IMG/VR virus record: IMGVR_UViG_3300015174_000024
Length of the DNA stretch: 15,100 bases
Direction: 5' to 3' (one strand)
From: a virus
Taxonomy: Duplodnaviria > Heunggongvirae > Uroviricota > Caudoviricetes
Shown in pieces: positions 1-15,100 of the stretch (position 1 is its first letter; each line of letters begins with the position of its first letter). Made by a program: the position numbers and the translations under genes. Below the pieces are notes generated by a model. It was not told the DNA's origin and searched no databases. It saw nothing but the letters and a program-made list of their open reading frames with translations.

Positions 1-165
1 ATGGCAAAGCCGATCATCACGCTCAATGGCCTAAAAATCGTCATTATGTTGGGAATGCTGGTCATTATTCTCTGCGGTATCCGTTTTGCCGCCGAGATCA
101 TCGTGCCGTTTATTCTCGCATTATTTATTGCTGTTATATATAACTTATTTCGCATAACACATTGA
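1..165 (+). pseudogene. tqsA: 5' fragment of AI-2 exporter gene tqsA (ydgG); first ~46 codons intact, then the frame diverges at about nt 138 and stops at 163-165
   Basis: Translation [46 protein letters not shown] matches my memory of the E. coli TqsA N-terminus; the following codons (YNLFRITH, stop) do not, and AT-rich element-like DNA follows. Identification is from memory, not a search. Confidence 0.5.
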
Positions 166-250
166 TTTAATTAAATAATTAACACCGCAAAAAGTGCCAA
201 AAATCGCAAAATGACTACACCAGTGACTACACCGTTCGGTGCACTGTATG

Positions 251-281
251 AAACAACGTGGAACAAATAGACACAAGAAAT
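251..281. repeat. 10-bp-phased direct repeats AACAACgtgg / GAACAAAtag / CACAAGaaat, preceded by TGACTACACC x2 (212-233) and phased A-tracts (189-211)
   Basis: Read directly in the sequence. The same AACAACGTGGAACAA core recurs at 7715-7729 and a related phased array at 13790-13836. Confidence 0.6.
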
Positions 282-863
282 ATACAGGCGGATCATCTTT
301 CCAGGGGGAAGCACACCAATTCATGAGGGGCGTTAATGTCGATATGGGGATCCCCACCTACCGGAATTTTTTTCCGGTTAAACGTTAATCAGGCTGGTGG
401 GCTTTACCTGTTCGGTAGGTGTTATGATTATCGTAATACCTTTCCCCCAATGGGGTAAAAGCATCAACCGTAACGAAAGTCGTTATGGTTGCCACTGATA
501 CCCCAAATTTGGGTATCACGAGTAAGCCCCAAAATCTGGGTGTTACTCTTACTACCCAAACTACGGGTAGTTTCCGTAGTTTCATGGTCGAGTTGCAGAT
601 CTGCAACTCCCCCATTAACCACAGGCGAATTTCCGCCTTCGGTCATTCCTTAATCATCTGCGTAATCATAATGATTATTCAGCAAGCGCAATTTTGCGCT
701 TTGCTTAAAGTTCAGCGAGTTACCGCGCAGACTTCCTCAAATTGAGGTTTCCGAAAATATCAGCGGGTTAGCGATTAAGCTGACCATTAATTAAACTGCG
801 AAAATGTCGTAGTTGTGAGGGGTGTAGCCAACCCATTTTTGGGCCGTCGGGAATATCAACCAG

Positions 864-1145
864 TTACCGCCGCAACCGCTCCGGCTTCTTCCAGTGGTAC
901 GTTATTTTCTCCTTCTCCCGATACATCTCCACGCGGCGACGGTAGGCCAGCAACTCAAGAACTCTGGTTCGTATGTTGCGCATATCCACGCCATTAAGTT
1001 CTATACCATCACGGCGCATCACCTCAGCAACAACACGCGCATAGTTTTCGGCTGTCACGCTGTCCGGCTGCGTGGCCTGTTCGTCAGCCTGCTGGCTGAT
1101 TCCGGCAACGCGGCGGATTAATCCCGTTATTTCGGCTTCTGTCAT
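864..1145 (-). CDS. hypothetical protein, 93 aa, last gene of the packaging operon
   Basis: ATG at 1145 preceded by GAGGT Shine-Dalgarno, 13 nt downstream of the terL stop; no family recognised. Confidence 0.5.
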   Translation of the reverse strand: MTEAEITGLIRRVAGISQQADEQATQPDSVTAENYARVVAEVMRRDGIELNGVDMRNIRTRVLELLAYRRRVEMYREKEKITYHWKKPERLRR

Positions 1146-7536: not shown

Positions 7537-7713
7537 GCGGCAAAAACTCAACCGTTTTTCATAAGGAAATCAGCAATCGCACCGATCGTTTTCCCGCCTG
7601 GTAATGAATATTGGCGAGAACATTAACAGGCGGAAAAGTGGCCCCAGCGTCCTGGCACCACGGGCGAGAATAATCATGATTCAGTTCGGGTAAAATATGC
7701 CGATCCGCTCAGT

Positions 7714-7740
7714 GAACAACGTGGAACAACCACGAACAAA
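7714..7740. repeat. 10-bp-phased direct repeats GAACAACgtg / GAACAACcac / GAACAAAtaa, about 220 bp upstream of the capsid operon
   Basis: Read directly; shares the 15-mer AACAACGTGGAACAA with 252-266. Confidence 0.6.
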
Positions 7741-7754
7741 TAATTTACAAAACA

Positions 7755-7780
7755 TGACAAAAAGCCGGATTGCTCCGGCT
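7755..7780 (-). terminator. rho-independent terminator after the PerC-like gene
   Basis: Minus strand AGCCGGA-gcaa-TCCGGCT followed by TTTTTGT, 7 nt after the stop codon. Confidence 0.55.
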
Positions 7781-8757: not shown

Positions 8758-8805
8758 ATTTATTTTTACCCCCTCGTTTAAAAAGTTTTGAGTTGTGCCT
8801 CCCCT

Positions 8806-9032
8806 TGTCTACCTTATCTACCTTAGTGGCCCTCATACCAGTAATGGCGCGGCTTTCAGCGGGGTAGAGTGCTTTTATCCACTATCTACCCCGTGTCTAC
8901 CTCCCTGTCTGATTCAGGTAAAATCAGGTAGAGAGGGTAGATAGTGGGTAGACAGTAAAAAAAGGTTATCTACCTAACTTAATGCACTGAATTAAATGTA
9001 TTTTTCTTTACTCAGGTAGACAGGGTAGACAG
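8806..9032. repeat. iteron array (about 11 copies of GGTAGAnA / TnTCTACC in both orientations) with an AT-rich stretch; candidate replication origin
   Basis: Octamers at 8806, 8815, 8863 (partial), 8884, 8894, 8927, 8937, 8948, 8967, 9015, 9024; AT-rich segment 8975-9012; lies immediately downstream of the primase gene. Confidence 0.55.
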
Positions 9033-9045
9033 CAATTACAAAAAA

Positions 9046-13319: not shown

Positions 13320-13508
13320 TTAATGAACTGCCTTGCAGCTATCCTTCCAGGCCAGAACCTCGGATAAAGACCAGCCAACGGAACGACCGCTAAGTTTACG
13401 ACGTGATGGGAATTGTCCGGCCTTTTCCAGGCGGTAGCGGCATGAGCGGCTAAGGCCTGTTAGCTTTTCGCATTCTTTTTCACGTATAAACCGATCAGTG
13501 CTTAACAC
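13320..13508 (-). CDS. alpA: AlpA-family (Xis/Vis-like) regulator/excisionase
   Basis: 62 aa; LTGLSRS..YRL..G.FP....L....VGW...EV..W pattern; GTG start with AAGGGGG SD; located next to int. Confidence 0.8.
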   Translation of the reverse strand: MLSTDRFIREKECEKLTGLSRSCRYRLEKAGQFPSRRKLSGRSVGWSLSEVLAWKDSCKAVH

Positions 13509-13789
13509 TATTGCCCCCTTTCGTTTCTTAAAGAGTTATTTCGTGTTCTATTGCGTTGGGATGTGTCTGATTGTGTCAGGATGATTCAGAGTTGGCAAAT
13601 GTTGAGGTCGCATGGTTTACAGAAAGAGGAATAATCAGGATAAAATCATTTAAATTCATGTTAATACAAAGGCATAAAATATTGTTTCATGCCTTTTTTC
13701 TCGCTATTTAAAGAGTGATTCGCTAGTGTATAAAAAACCAGTAACACATTAAAAATCAGCTACTTATAAATCCGTACACTTTTTCGCCT

Positions 13790-13836
13790 CTTGTTCGTAG
13801 TTGTTCCGCATTGTTGCTCATTGTTGCACGTTGTAT
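13790..13836. repeat. five 10-bp-phased repeats (plus strand TTGTTcgtag/TTGTTccgca/TTGTTgctca/TTGTTgcacg/TTGTAtctgt; minus strand GAACAA-type) just 3' of int
   Basis: Read directly; related to the GAACAA arrays at 251-281 and 7714-7740 but in opposite orientation. Confidence 0.6.
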
Positions 13837-13882
13837 CTGTTCGCATATCCAGCATGCGCATACTGAAAAAACACGAAAAAAA

Positions 13883-15100
13883 TTATTTTCTTCTGGCTAC
13901 TGGTAGCGTGGTTACGTTTTCATGTGTTCCCGCCAGTATCCCTAACCGCTCCGTCCACATATCCAGCGCATTGCGTTTAGCATCCAGATAACGGGAATGA
14001 TTATAAACTCGCTGCATTCCTGGCATCTGGTGGCCTGTAAGCTGCTCCACGACATGCGGATCAACGCCTAAATCGTTCAGCATGGTTGTAAAGGTGCGCC
14101 GGATGTCATGCAGTGACCAGTGAGGATGATTAAGCCTCCTGTGCGCTAATCTTCCATACTGCGATACGCTGGCCTCCTGTTTCACTTCCCCCAGCAATAA
14201 GCCCGTGTGCCTGTTCTGCTCCACCAGCTGCGTGACGAACGGCAGGATCGCTTCCGGTATGGGCCGGAATATTGCGACCTTCGTTTTGCTGTGCTCCTTC
14301 GGAACGGTCCATAGCATTTCCGTAAAATCCCACTCCCCGATCTCCGATAACCTCAGTTCTACCGTTCTGGCTCCGAAGACAATCAGGAGGCGGATTAACG
14401 CGACGTAGTAAGGGGAGAATATTTTTTTGTCCAGTGCCTGCAATAATTCGCCAAGTTCTTTGTTACTTAAGACACGTTCGCTTATATCCGGTTTTTTCCC
14501 AACGTCCGCCACGTTCAGATCGTCCAGAACGTTGCTGATTGCATAGCGCCGCCTACGGCAGAACTTAAGCGCCTGTTTGCACGCCTGTAGCACGAATCCG
14601 GCAGTAACAGGCGTTCGCTTTGCCACCTGGTCAAAACAGGCCAGCCAGTGCCGTAGCTCGCATTTATCCAGCGGCATAGCACCAATCTGCTGTATTACGT
14701 GATTATTAAGTCGCCTTTTCAGGGCGATATAATCCACGCGGTTTTCCTTTACGTAATACTCAAGCCAGTAGGTGAGCGCATCGCCAACCGTTACGGGCTT
14801 TAACGCTTCCTGTACGGTGTAATTCATCTCATGACGTGGATTTTTCCCCTCAGCCAGCCATGTGCGACACTGTGCGGCTTTTTCCCTGGCTGCTTTCAGG
14901 CTCAGATCAGGATAACTTCCCAGCTTAATGCGTTCGGGTCGTGTCTCCCTTCCCGTTCCGGCCCTGTATGTGAAATACCAGGTCAATTTCCCTGATGTTA
15001 AATATTTCACGCTCAGGTTTCCGCCATCACTATAAAACGTGTTTTTCTCCGCTGGCTTACCATGAAGTTTCCTTAGCAAGGTATCGCTCAGTTTGTTCAT
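13883..15100 (-). CDS. int: tyrosine integrase, P4-like with N-terminal arm-binding domain
   Basis: 405 aa; HDIRRTF, LTGHQ and C-terminal VYNHSRY catalytic-Tyr motifs; the ATG is the last 3 nt of the window. Confidence 0.9.
   Translation of the reverse strand: MNKLSDTLLRKLHGKPAEKNTFYSDGGNLSVKYLTSGKLTWYFTYRAGTGRETRPERIKLGSYPDLSLKAAREKAAQCRTWLAEGKNPRHEMNYTVQEALKPVTVGDALTYWLEYYVKENRVDYIALKRRLNNHVIQQIGAMPLDKCELRHWLACFDQVAKRTPVTAGFVLQACKQALKFCRRRRYAISNVLDDLNVADVGKKPDISERVLSNKELGELLQALDKKIFSPYYVALIRLLIVFGARTVELRLSEIGEWDFTEMLWTVPKEHSKTKVAIFRPIPEAILPFVTQLVEQNRHTGLLLGEVKQEASVSQYGRLAHRRLNHPHWSLHDIRRTFTTMLNDLGVDPHVVEQLTGHQMPGMQRVYNHSRYLDAKRNALDMWTERLGILAGTHENVTTLPVARRK

What the first reader, a model, noticed from the sequence alone, without database searches (positions are those of the whole stretch)
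160..285. Left end carries an att-arm-like cluster: phased A-tracts, TGACTACACC x2 and phased GAACAA repeats
Within 150 bp of the junction there are three A4-5 tracts at 10-bp spacing (189-211), a tandem TGACTACACC (212-221, 224-233) and 10-bp-phased AACAAC/GAACAAA units (252-281). Phased direct repeats and curved DNA beside the core are what arm-type integrase and excisionase sites look like. The integrase has an arm-binding N-terminal domain and an AlpA/Xis-like protein is encoded.
Basis: inference. Interest (0 to 1): 0.55.

Follow-up and report, generated by a model that had tools for sequence, protein, structure and literature searches.

The report
Attachment-site arm of a phage satellite
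The repeats are real and are very probably the protein-binding "arm" of the site where a phage-satellite island (a capsid-forming PICI inserted in the E. coli tqsA gene) cuts itself in and out of the chromosome. This is an ordinary kind of element, but it gives the first concrete candidate binding sites for this island family's integrase and its AlpA regulator.

Summary
Observation confirmed. The sequence has three phased A-tracts (189-211), TGACTACACC twice (212-221, 224-233) and three 10-bp-phased RAACAA units (249-277), each well above chance.

Interpretation supported by comparative evidence; no binding was tested. The window is a capsid-forming PICI inserted in tqsA. The crossover core is TGCTGTTAT at 129-137, so the cluster lies 50-150 bp inside the island.

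The block of doubled ACTACACC plus RAACAA array recurs in the same orientation just upstream of int at the other end, about 40 bp beyond the window. In six elements at five insertion sites the doubled motif sits 91.5 (distal) and 141.5 bp (int-proximal) from the overlap centre, within 1 bp, although the spacers diverge. An exact IHF consensus (155-167) lies between core and repeats.

The nucleotide two bases before each ACTACACC tracks the integrase N-domain type in both arms (16 loci, no exception). This favours the doubled motif as Int arm-type sites.

The RAACAA array also occurs downstream of int/upstream of alpA and before the capsid operon. This favours AlpA acting as both regulator and excision factor.

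The geometry equals the published doubled motif of helper-embedded PICIs, with a different 8-mer. Verdict: a new member of a known kind, of modest interest.

The parts
1..128 (+). 5' part of the host gene tqsA (AI-2 exporter), interrupted by the island. Context, not part of the element.
   Evidence: Identical to MG1655 tqsA up to the core. RefSeq annotates a truncated 'pheromone autoinducer 2 transporter' here.
129..137 (+). att core: the 9-bp identity block TGCTGTTAT shared by attL, attR and attB. The inferred 7-bp overlap (strand-exchange region) is TGCTGTT at 129-135.
   Evidence: Longest common block of the two island ends and the empty site. In reconstructed attPs of relatives, the 7 bp lie between imperfect inverted repeats T(G/T)ATAAAA and ATTTATAA. 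The overlap differs by insertion site: TATGTCC, TCACGAT, ATCCGCT.
136..144 (+). Putative C' core-type Int site (ATATATAAC).
   Evidence: Inferred from the inverted-repeat consensus ATTTATAA(T/C) in five attPs. Not tested.
155..167 (-). IHF consensus match AATCAATGTGTTA (WATCAANNNNTTR), between the core and the repeats.
   Evidence: One of only 2 exact matches in the window (0.64 expected). CATTGATTTAATTAAA is kept in most left arms, with 1 mismatch in L004/L005 and no match in one clpS-site subgroup.
189..211 (+). Three A-tracts about 10 bp apart (189-193, 199-203, 208-211), immediately 5' of the doubled motif.
   Evidence: Unique in the window. The A5 at 199-203 is kept in 13 of 15 left arms (variants ATAAA in L146, AAAAT in L186). 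The first tract is variable.
210..233 (+). Doubled motif: two 12-bp units AATG-ACTACACC and AGTG-ACTACACC. Candidate Int arm-type sites of the int-distal arm. Its midpoint is 91.5 bp from the overlap centre.
   Evidence: Exact tandem. ACTACACC-A-N-T-N-ACTACACC-G is invariant in 15 left and 8 right arms. A second co-oriented copy lies 141.5 bp on the other side of the core, 27-48 nt upstream of the int start. The base at unit position 2 tracks the Int N-domain type.
249..277 (+). Array of three 10-bp-phased RAACAA units (TGAAACAAC / TGGAACAAA / AGACACAAG). Candidate AlpA (recombination directionality factor / regulator) sites.
   Evidence: The same array follows the doubled motif at the same distance in the int-proximal arm: ungapped alignment, 55 of 79 identical. 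The AACAA columns are invariant across relatives.
7713..7742 (+). Internal copy of the RAACAA array (TGAACAACGTGGAACAACCACGAACAAATA), between the perC terminator and the capsid operon.
   Evidence: Present only in the two capsid-forming islands, L001 and L251.
13786..13838 (-). Internal array of 5-6 phased RAACAA units just after the int stop codon, upstream of alpA.
   Evidence: Kept in L003, L004, L005 and L251, and in EcCICFT073 with 6 units.
13320..13508 (-). alpA: 62-aa AlpA-family winged-helix protein.
   Evidence: Pfam PF05930, E = 1.9e-17. PDB 8c3t, an AlpA family protein, E = 1e-6. 58 of 62 residues identical to EcCICFT073 AlpA.
13883..15100 (-). int: P4-type tyrosine integrase with an arm-binding N-domain. 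Its start codon is the last base of the window. The int-proximal arm and attR core lie about 40-196 bp beyond the window.
   Evidence: Pfam Arm-DNA-bind_3 (residues 4-91) and Phage_integrase. PDB 3jtz, a CP4-like integrase N-domain. Right arm read from L001, whose Int is 404/405 identical.

Best explanation
Window 129-277 is the int-distal arm of the attachment site of a capsid-forming PICI satellite inserted in tqsA. Together with the int-proximal arm, which lies just beyond the window, it makes up an attP of about 300 bp.

Proposed mechanism (steps marked shown or inferred):

1. The Int catalytic and core-binding domains act on a 7-bp overlap (TGCTGTT, 129-135) flanked by AT-rich inverted core sites. 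The identity block is shown; the cleavage positions are inferred.
2. IHF bends the DNA at 155-167, perhaps helped by the A-tracts (inferred).
3. The bend lets the N-terminal arm-binding domains of the Int tetramer hold the two tandem ACTACACC units at +82 to +101. Two more units sit at -132 to -151 in the other arm, giving four arm-type sites in all (inferred).
4. AlpA, a winged-helix protein, coats the 10-bp-phased RAACAA arrays head to tail in both arms. This would give directionality towards excision. The same protein would use the same array upstream of its own gene and, in capsid-forming islands, upstream of the capsid operon to control transcription (inferred).
5. In the int-proximal arm the doubled motif lies 27-48 nt upstream of the int start codon. 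Occupancy there should feed back on int expression (inferred, by analogy with P4, KplE1 and ICEMlSym).

I put about 0.8 on 'this is a functional att arm with selected protein-binding repeats'. I put about 0.55 on the specific assignment of the doubled motif to the Int N-domain and the RAACAA array to AlpA.
For: Core and boundaries:
-.

Same block in both arms:
- The doubled motif plus array aligns ungapped between the two arms, 55 of 79 identical and co-oriented.

Fixed geometry despite divergent spacers:
- In six elements at five chromosomal sites the doubled motif is 91.5 and 141.5 bp from the overlap centre, within 1 bp.
- The alignments show invariant motif columns within 74-81% overall column identity.
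- The same geometry (91-92 and 143) holds in helper-embedded PICIs, whose Int is only 40-45% identical and whose motif is TGTATTGC (PMC10111431 section 19).
- The two motifs share GTGTAnT when read on the int coding strand (direct reading).

The doubled motif is att-specific:
- There is no other exact copy in the island.

Co-variation with Int:
- Int is a domain mosaic, and the N-domain type is independent of the core-binding/catalytic type.
- Position 2 of every unit is G or A with N-domain type A and T with type B. This holds in both the proximal and the 10-15-kb-distant arm, in 16 loci without exception.
- AlpA is 90-98% identical across the A and B types.

RAACAA array:
- There are only four phased clusters in the island: both arms, the int-alpA spacer, and upstream of the capsid operon. 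None appears in 300 shuffles.
- Its flavour changes to CGAACAA in the clpS-site islands, whose AlpA is only 58-61% identical.

Experimental anchor:
- EcCICFT073 has the same arms and arrays, and its AlpA is 58/62 identical.
- In that island an int-attP plasmid integrates, AlpA activates PalpA but not Pint, and AlpA overexpression gives int-dependent excision (PMC6092414, sections 10 and 14).

Precedents:
- RDF arrays and Int arm sites overlap the int promoter in KplE1, which has five cooperative TorI sites (PMC2951348, PMC3509656).
- The same applies to ICEMlSymR7A, which has five arm sites, and RdfS binds attP upstream of intS (PMC11963761).
- In P4, Int and Vis repress Pint and an IHF site is present (as summarised in PMC7286903).
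- Winged-helix RDFs and BldC bind one helical turn apart, head to tail (PMC11963761).

Other:
- IHF consensus.
- A-tract triple unique in the window.
Against: - No binding, footprint or mutant data exist for these sites.
- The int-proximal arm was read from a near-identical genome (L001), not from the window itself.
- The position-2 / N-domain association could reflect shared ancestry of whole island ends rather than selection. Only about 3 independent type-A and 7 type-B distal arms were seen.
- In the proximal arm the motif is physically linked to the N-domain coding sequence.
- Int and AlpA both differ between the two PICI clades, so the motif change between clades does not discriminate the binder.
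- The int-alpA array lies 130-300 bp upstream of the predicted alpA promoters, which is far for a simple activator.
- The simple consensus scan found no promoter in the int-proximal arm.
- The helper-embedded PICI arms show no obvious RAACAA-type array (read by eye).
- One clpS-site subgroup lacks the IHF match.
- A-tract conservation is only partial.
Confidence: 0.7

Rival explanations
1. Swapped assignment. The region is an att arm, but the doubled ACTACACC motif is bound by AlpA (or another accessory protein) and the RAACAA units are the Int arm-type sites.
For: The authors who described the analogous doubled motif left open whether Int arm domains, AlpA or an unknown protein binds it (PMC10111431, section 19). 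Both Int and AlpA diverge between the two PICI clades that have different doubled motifs. Arm-type sites in other systems can also be phased about 10 bp apart (my own knowledge of lambda P'1-P'3).
Against: RAACAA arrays also sit at two internal, non-att positions next to operons. That fits a transcription factor, not an integrase. The doubled motif is confined to the arms. Unit position 2 tracks the Int N-domain type while AlpA stays nearly constant. The array flavour changes with the AlpA allele. Four ACTACACC units match an Int tetramer.
Confidence: 0.12
2. The doubled motif is an att arm site, but the RAACAA array is a purely transcriptional operator for AlpA, a helper-phage factor or a host response regulator, with no role in recombination. 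Its copy at 249-277 would control a promoter reading into the conserved non-coding region to its right.
For: The array occurs at internal regulatory positions. A weak sigma-70-like match (TAGACA-17-GATCAT, 268-296, + strand) starts inside the array. Right of it lies a conserved, extremely structured 360-nt stretch with z = -7.5. Tandem direct repeats at 10-11 bp are also typical of winged-helix response regulators (my own knowledge).
Against: The array keeps the same distance from the doubled motif in both arms (ungapped alignment) and is retained in every relative's two arms. The promoter match is no better than chance: 1 found against 1.8 expected. A second RAACA(A/C) set abuts the core in the int-proximal arm. 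AlpA overexpression causes int-dependent excision without raising Pint in EcCICFT073 (PMC6092414, section 14), which calls for an AlpA action at att.
Confidence: 0.13
3. The cluster is a non-functional relic, for example a leftover of a tandem insertion or a duplication of the int upstream region, or a chance low-complexity patch.
For: The two arms share a 79-bp block at 70% identity, as a duplication would. One contig (L231) carries an attP-type junction, so tandem copies occur.
Against: Motif columns are invariant and distances to the core are fixed within 1 bp in elements at five insertion sites, whereas the spacers between them have diverged or been replaced. The same geometry holds in a clade with 40-45% identical Int and a different motif. 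All three features are far above shuffle expectation.
Confidence: 0.03
4. The repeats belong to a packaging (cos/pac) site, a replication origin or a coding sequence rather than to att.
For: The island end also holds a conserved hairpin-rich non-coding stretch of unknown role. A 70-aa ORF (145-357, - strand) overlaps the region.
Against: The ORF has no Pfam match and is not annotated in RefSeq. Origin-type iterons (GGTAGAC) lie elsewhere, at 8800-9040. The doubled motif is duplicated upstream of int at a fixed distance from the crossover, which neither a cos site nor an origin explains. The block is shared by islands with unrelated packaging modules.
Confidence: 0.02

Closest known systems
Doubled attP motif of helper-embedded PICIs (tgTGTATTGCantgTGTATTGCa; PMC10111431, section 19)
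   Same: - Tandem 8-bp core with a 12-bp period.
- Two co-oriented copies on either side of the crossover.
- The same distances when measured the same way: 91-92 and 143 bp against 91.5 and 141.5 here.
- The proximal copy lies a few tens of bp upstream of an inward-reading int, which is followed by alpA.
- The motifs share GTGTAnT.
   Different: - The 8-mer differs (ACTACACC, which is GGTGTAGT on the int strand).
- Int is only 40-45% identical and AlpA 50-58% identical.
- That paper states the motif was not found in other PICIs.
- Here a phased RAACAA array accompanies the motif; it was not evident in the helper-embedded arms.
- The binder is unknown in both systems.
Phage lambda attP (P and P' arms with Int arm-type sites, IHF H sites, Xis X1-X1.5-X2, Fis)
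   Same: - A heterobivalent integrase.
- A 7-bp overlap between inverted core sites.
- An IHF site next to the core followed by tandem arm-type sites, like C'-H'-P'1-P'3.
- A longer second arm of about 150 bp carrying phased sites for a small winged-helix directionality factor.

   Basis: established knowledge.
   Different: - The Int N-domain belongs to a different family (Arm-DNA-bind_3, P4 type).
- int reads inward from the long arm, not toward the short arm.
- The candidate RDF array is present in both arms and at internal promoters.
- There is no sequence similarity.
KplE1/HK620 IntS-TorI and ICEMlSymR7A IntS-RdfS recombination modules (PMC2951348, PMC3509656, PMC11963761)
   Same: - The int promoter region overlaps the att arm that carries the Int arm-type sites and several cooperative sites for a winged-helix RDF.
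- The RDF doubles as a transcription regulator.
- Arm motifs are about 10 bp long and occur in 4-5 copies.
   Different: - The motif sequences differ (ICEMlSym: TGKTGGTATC).
- Those elements insert at tRNA genes.
- Binding has been shown there and is only inferred here.
Satellite phage P4 Int/Vis
   Same: - Same integrase family, and Vis is an AlpA-family protein.
- Int and Vis both act at the int promoter/att region.
- An IHF site is present.

Basis: as summarised in PMC7286903 and PMC6092414.
   Different: The PICI AlpA is reported as an activator of the island cycle rather than only an excisionase (PMC6092414). I did not compare the P4 att sequence itself.
EcCICFT073, the experimentally studied E. 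coli PICI
   Same: - Same doubled motif in both arms.
- Same arrays in the arms, and a 6-unit array between int and alpA.
- AlpA 58/62 identical; Int N-domain of type B.
- Its int-attP segment is sufficient for integration, and AlpA triggers int-dependent excision (PMC6092414).
   Different: - It is inserted at phoQ/roxA with overlap TATGTCC.
- Its packaging module differs, and it has no array before a capsid operon of the cf type.
- The arm repeats were not described in that paper, as far as the text searches showed.

Membership tests
attP/attL arm of a heterobivalent (arm-binding) tyrosine integrase | The cognate integrase has a separate N-terminal arm-binding domain. | tested here: met
   Pfam Arm-DNA-bind_3, residues 4-91, E = 1.4e-18, plus Phage_integrase. 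PDB 3jtz, a CP4-like integrase N-domain.
attP/attL arm of a heterobivalent (arm-binding) tyrosine integrase | The region lies next to the crossover core, defined by attL/attR/attB identity. | tested here: met
   Core TGCTGTTAT at 129-137. The repeats lie 50-150 bp inside the island.
attP/attL arm of a heterobivalent (arm-binding) tyrosine integrase | A repeated motif unlike the core sequence is present on both sides of the core. | tested here: met
   The doubled ACTACACC is in both arms, co-oriented. The core-type sites are AT-rich inverted repeats.
attP/attL arm of a heterobivalent (arm-binding) tyrosine integrase | Motif and spacing are conserved among relatives while the flanks diverge. | tested here: met
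   Distances of 91.5 and 141.5 bp, within 1 bp, in six elements at five sites. Invariant motif columns in 15 and 8 arms.
attP/attL arm of a heterobivalent (arm-binding) tyrosine integrase | The Int N-domain binds the motif directly, and the motif is required for recombination. | not testable with these tools
   Indirect only: unit position 2 co-varies with the N-domain type in both arms.
attP/attL arm of a heterobivalent (arm-binding) tyrosine integrase | A site for a DNA-bending accessory protein (IHF) lies between the core and the arm sites. | tested here: inconclusive
   An exact WATCAANNNNTTR match at 155-167, with 0.64 expected per window. It is conserved in most left arms but not all. 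Binding was not tested.
attP/attL arm of a heterobivalent (arm-binding) tyrosine integrase | Sites for a recombination directionality factor are present. | tested here: inconclusive
   Phased RAACAA arrays are in both arms and at internal regulatory regions. An AlpA-family protein is encoded. The assignment to AlpA is inferred.
Helper-embedded-PICI type doubled attP motif (PMC10111431) | A tandem 8-bp core with a 12-bp period, in two co-oriented copies flanking the crossover at fixed distances. | tested here: met
   91.5 and 141.5 bp here against 91-92 and 143 bp in L040, L073 and L017, measured midpoint to centre of the identity block.
Helper-embedded-PICI type doubled attP motif (PMC10111431) | Motif sequence TGTATTGC. 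| tested here: not met
   Here the motif is ACTACACC (GGTGTAGT on the int strand). Only GTGTAnT is shared.
Helper-embedded-PICI type doubled attP motif (PMC10111431) | The integrase belongs to the helper-embedded / fis PICI clade and inserts in prophage late genes. | tested here: not met
   Int is 40-45% identical to the integrases next to TGTATTGC motifs. The insertion sites here are chromosomal genes and spacers.
Gram-negative PICI / capsid-forming PICI (context of the finding) | Unidirectional int-alpA-primase-ori organisation plus its own capsid, portal, protease, HNH, TerS and TerL genes, and no tail or lysis genes. | tested here: met
   RefSeq annotation of the near-identical island L001. 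Organisation as described in PMC6092414 and bioRxiv 10.1101/2022.09.08.507074. Induction by a helper phage was not tested.

The most novel reading that the evidence does not exclude
The RAACAA array (consensus ACAACGTGNAACAA extended at 10-bp steps) is the so far undefined operator of PICI AlpA. One small protein would then use the same array in four places to couple helper-induced transcription (its own gene and the capsid operon) to excision directionality at both att arms. In parallel, the doubled ACTACACC motif and the Int N-domain would form a swappable specificity module. The same intasome scaffold, with arm sites 233 bp apart, could then be re-targeted to new chromosomal sites by changing only the 7-bp overlap.
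Probability: 0.4. Interest if true: 0.5.

Novelty: new member of a known kind. Interest (0 to 1): 0.33.

Why it matters
PICIs of E. coli, including the capsid-forming ones, are being studied intensively as gene-transfer agents. In the papers I could search, neither the DNA sites of their integrase arms nor those of the master activator AlpA have been defined.

This analysis gives exact, testable candidates that also apply to the experimental model EcCICFT073:
- four ACTACACC units;
- four RAACAA arrays;
- an IHF site;
- a 7-bp overlap.

It also shows that the 'doubled motif' geometry reported for one PICI integrase clade extends to a second clade with a different motif. That argues for a common intasome architecture. 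It would help explain how these satellites acquire new insertion sites (at least five seen here) with almost unchanged recombinases.

None of this is conceptually new for tyrosine-integrase biology.

Tried and rejected
- **Search for distant relatives through Int.** The scan of one genome per species returned only one locus, in Shigella. Deep phylogenetic footprinting was therefore replaced by E. coli variants and IMG/VR pattern scans.
- **Databases with no match.** Rfam gave no family in the window. The phage collection gave no match for the arm or for the neighbouring non-coding stretch.
- **Promoter and terminator scans.** Nothing useful was found in the left arm or the int-proximal arm, so the int promoter position remains unknown.
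- **Misplaced core.** I first placed the core at 137-145. Recounting and the common-substring script put it at 129-137.
- **Indel and third copy dropped.** I first read a 10-nt insertion with a degenerate third ACTACACC copy (GGGCTACAAC) in the int-proximal arm. The ungapped alignment is better and makes that stretch the first RAACAA-type unit, and it is not conserved as an ACTACACC copy.
- **Wrong expectation about Int divergence.** I expected the core-binding and catalytic domains to differ between elements with different cores. Instead the N-domain is the most diverged part, and the overlap sequence alone changes.
- **Helper-embedded PICIs.** I looked for RAACAA-like arrays there to test whether the array is general, and none was evident. 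The common-substring method failed to find a credible core for four of seven such loci.
- **Literature.** A search for the motif string found nothing relevant. The EcCIMP1 paper has no AlpA binding-site data.
- **Not settled.** I did not establish whether the window is EcCIEDL933 itself.
Full report
**What the window is.**
- Bases 1-128 are the 5' part of the E. coli gene tqsA, which encodes the AI-2 exporter.
- They are identical to MG1655 up to ...TTATTTAT-TGCTGTTAT, after which the sequences part.
- A near-identical island in strain SCU-204 (locus L001: first 1200 bases 99.9% identical, Int 404/405) is annotated on the minus strand as int, alpA-type regulator, Icd-like, primase, SSB, PerC, major capsid, prohead protease, portal, connector proteins, HNH, TerS and TerL. 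The 3' part of tqsA resumes after it.
- This is the organisation of a capsid-forming PICI satellite (bioRxiv 10.1101/2022.09.08.507074; PMC6092414).
- Int carries Arm-DNA-bind_3 and Phage_integrase domains, and the 62-aa protein is Phage_AlpA.
- The window ends exactly at the int start codon, so the other end of the island is not in it.

**The observation.**
- The A-tract triple (189-193, 199-203, 208-211) is the only such arrangement in the window (0.11 expected).
- TGACTACACC occurs exactly twice, at 212 and 224.
- The units TGAAACAAC, TGGAACAAA and AGACACAAG (249-277) are 10 bp apart.
- Phased clusters of this kind occur four times in the island and never in 300 shuffles.
- The 14-mer ACAACGTGNAACAA has three exact copies in the window against 0.04 expected.

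**Where the core is.**
- The block shared by the left junction, the right junction (L001) and the empty site is TGCTGTTAT, window 129-137.
- Reconstructed attPs of five relatives align as AACACTAA(A/T)T(G/T)ATAAAA - 7 bp - ATTTATAA(T/C).
- The 7 bp differ by insertion site: TGCTGTT at tqsA, TATGTCC at phoQ/roxA, TCACGAT at smrA/abgR, ATCCGCT at yifB/ilvL and AACTATC at clpS/cspD.
- I read this as a 7-bp overlap between inverted core-type sites. That is an inference from the pattern.

**The other arm.**
- Upstream of int, 38-60 bp beyond the window end, L001 reads AAAAAG-TGACTACACC-AG-TGACTACACC-G, followed by ...CTACAACGTGAAACAAGCTGGAACAAGGAAAATCACAA.
- The 79-bp block aligns without gaps to window 212-290. 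55 of 79 positions are identical, including 30 of the first 33, and the orientation is the same.
- A further set, TGAAACA-TGAAACA-AAAACAC, abuts the core on that side.
- The attP therefore spans about -151 to +145.

**Comparative test.**
- Related islands were fetched from E. coli genomes and IMG/VR contigs.
- In 15 left arms and 8 right arms, ACTACACC-A-N-T-N-ACTACACC-G and the AACAA columns are invariant. Mean column identity is 74% and 81%.
- In the clpS-site group the sequence between the core and the doubled motif is unrelated, yet has the same length within 1 bp.
- The midpoint of the doubled motif is 91.5 bp (distal) and 141.5 bp (proximal) from the overlap centre in all six complete elements.
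- This is what a geometric constraint of a nucleoprotein complex predicts. A relic would not show it.

**Published counterpart.**
- PMC10111431 (section 19) describes, for helper-embedded PICIs, a doubled motif tgTGTATTGCantgTGTATTGCa in two co-oriented copies at 81 +/- 2 and 132 +/- 2 bp from the attP centre.
- The paper says it was absent from other PICIs, and the binder is undetermined.
- I recovered such elements. Their motif always lies just upstream of an Int that is 40-45% identical to ours, followed by an AlpA that is 50-58% identical.
- Measured midpoint to centre, their distances are 91-92 and 143 bp, the same as here.
- Read on the int strand, the motifs are tGTGTATTGCa and gGTGTAGTCAc, which share GTGTAnT.
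- So this island has the same architecture in a second integrase clade with a diverged motif.

**Who binds what (inference).**
1. The doubled motif occurs only in the arms.
2. Int is a mosaic.
   - N-domain type A (window, L005, L251) and type B (L003, L004, CFT073; the L007 group is B-like) combine freely with core-binding/catalytic types I, II and III.
   - Surprisingly, the N-domain is the most diverged part between elements whose catalytic domains are 98% identical.
3. The base at position 2 of each 12-bp unit is G or A with type A and T with type B. This holds in the proximal arm and in the distal arm 10-15 kb away, in 16 loci without exception. AlpA stays 90-98% identical across A and B.
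4. RAACAA arrays also lie just after the int stop codon, upstream of alpA (13786-13838, minus strand, 5-6 units). In the two capsid-forming islands only, another lies between the perC terminator and the capsid operon at 7713-7742.
5. The array flavour changes to CGAACAA in the group whose AlpA is 58-61% identical.
6. EcCICFT073 has the same arms and a 6-unit array upstream of alpA. There AlpA activates its own promoter but not Pint, and its overexpression causes int-dependent excision (PMC6092414, section 14). That is most simply explained if AlpA also acts directly at att.
7. Winged-helix directionality factors bind as head-to-tail arrays one helical turn apart, and often regulate int as well (PMC11963761, PMC2951348, PMC3509656; P4 as summarised in PMC7286903).

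From these points I assign the doubled motif to the Int N-domain and the arrays to AlpA, with about 0.55 confidence in that assignment.

**Accessory features.**
- An exact IHF consensus (AATCAATGTGTTA, minus strand, 155-167) lies between the core and the repeats. There are two matches in the window against 0.64 expected. It is conserved in most left arms.
- Of the A-tracts, the A5 at 199-203 is kept in 13 of 15 left arms (ATAAA in L146, AAAAT in L186) and the first tract is variable.
- The A-tracts may contribute a bend, or may be part of an extended site. This is open.

**Limits.**
- No binding or genetic data exist for these sites.
- The proximal arm comes from a proxy genome.
- The co-variation rests on few independent lineages and is not corrected for phylogeny.
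- No promoter could be placed in the proximal arm.
- The int-alpA array is far upstream of the predicted alpA promoters.

**Verdict.**
- It is a standard kind of element, the arm of a tyrosine-integrase attachment site.
- In the literature I could search it has not been described for this PICI clade.
- It is useful mainly as a set of precise, testable site predictions.

Noticed in passing
window 300-860: About 560 bp with no annotated gene, directly right of the att arm. Positions 300-660 fold with z = -7.5 on both strands as a chain of hairpins and palindromes (for example CGATATGGGGATCCCCA at 338-356 and CCGGAATTTTTTTCCGG at 360-377). The piece GATATGGGGATYCCCA...GTTAATCAGGCTGGTGGG is kept at the int-distal end of islands with other cargo, and even in helper-embedded PICIs with a 42%-identical Int. 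There is no Rfam family and no match in the phage collection. It could be a packaging site or a structured RNA.
   Followed up: partly
window 7713-7742 (+), with terminator at 7763-7780 (-): A fourth copy of the RAACAA array lies between the perC terminator and the capsid operon. It is present only in the two capsid-forming islands examined (L001 and L251), which suggests a control point for the satellite's own capsid genes.
   Followed up: partly
window 13883-15100 (int), compared with L003, L004, L005, L007, L009: The integrase is a domain mosaic. N-domain types A and B combine independently with core-binding/catalytic types I, II and III. Elements with 98% identical catalytic domains use different 7-bp overlaps and different insertion sites.
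   Followed up: partly
window 8800-9040: Dense iterons (GGTAGAC/GTCTACC and CTACC variants) lie downstream of the primase gene, as expected for a PICI replication origin.
   Followed up: no
window 821-830 (-) and 854-866 (+): A single near-copy of the arm unit (TGGCTACACC) and the only other exact IHF consensus in the window (TATCAACCAGTTA) lie about 25 bp apart, just downstream of the 93-aa gene at 864-1145. Their meaning is unknown.
   Followed up: no
window 1-165; L001 17393-18298: The insertion splits tqsA and does not restore it. The 5' fragment runs into island sequence and stops at 163-165, and the 3' fragment is annotated as a pseudogene. Carriers should therefore lack the AI-2 exporter TqsA.
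   Followed up: no
L231 (IMG/VR contig), both ends: The contig holds an attL junction at one end and an attP-type junction (proximal arm, core, distal arm) at the other. It is therefore either a tandem pair of islands or an assembled circular form.
   Followed up: no
window 13520-13570 (-): A second, looser set of 10-bp-phased ACACAA/ACACA units (CTGACACAATCAGACACATCCCAACGCAATAGAACACG) overlaps the predicted -10 region and leader of alpA. It is partly conserved in relatives.
   Followed up: no
L253 (E. coli CFT073, NC_004431.1 1377700-1389200): The experimentally studied PICI EcCICFT073 sits at the phoQ/roxA site and carries the same doubled motif and arrays. Published assays for that island could therefore test the predictions directly.
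   Followed up: yes
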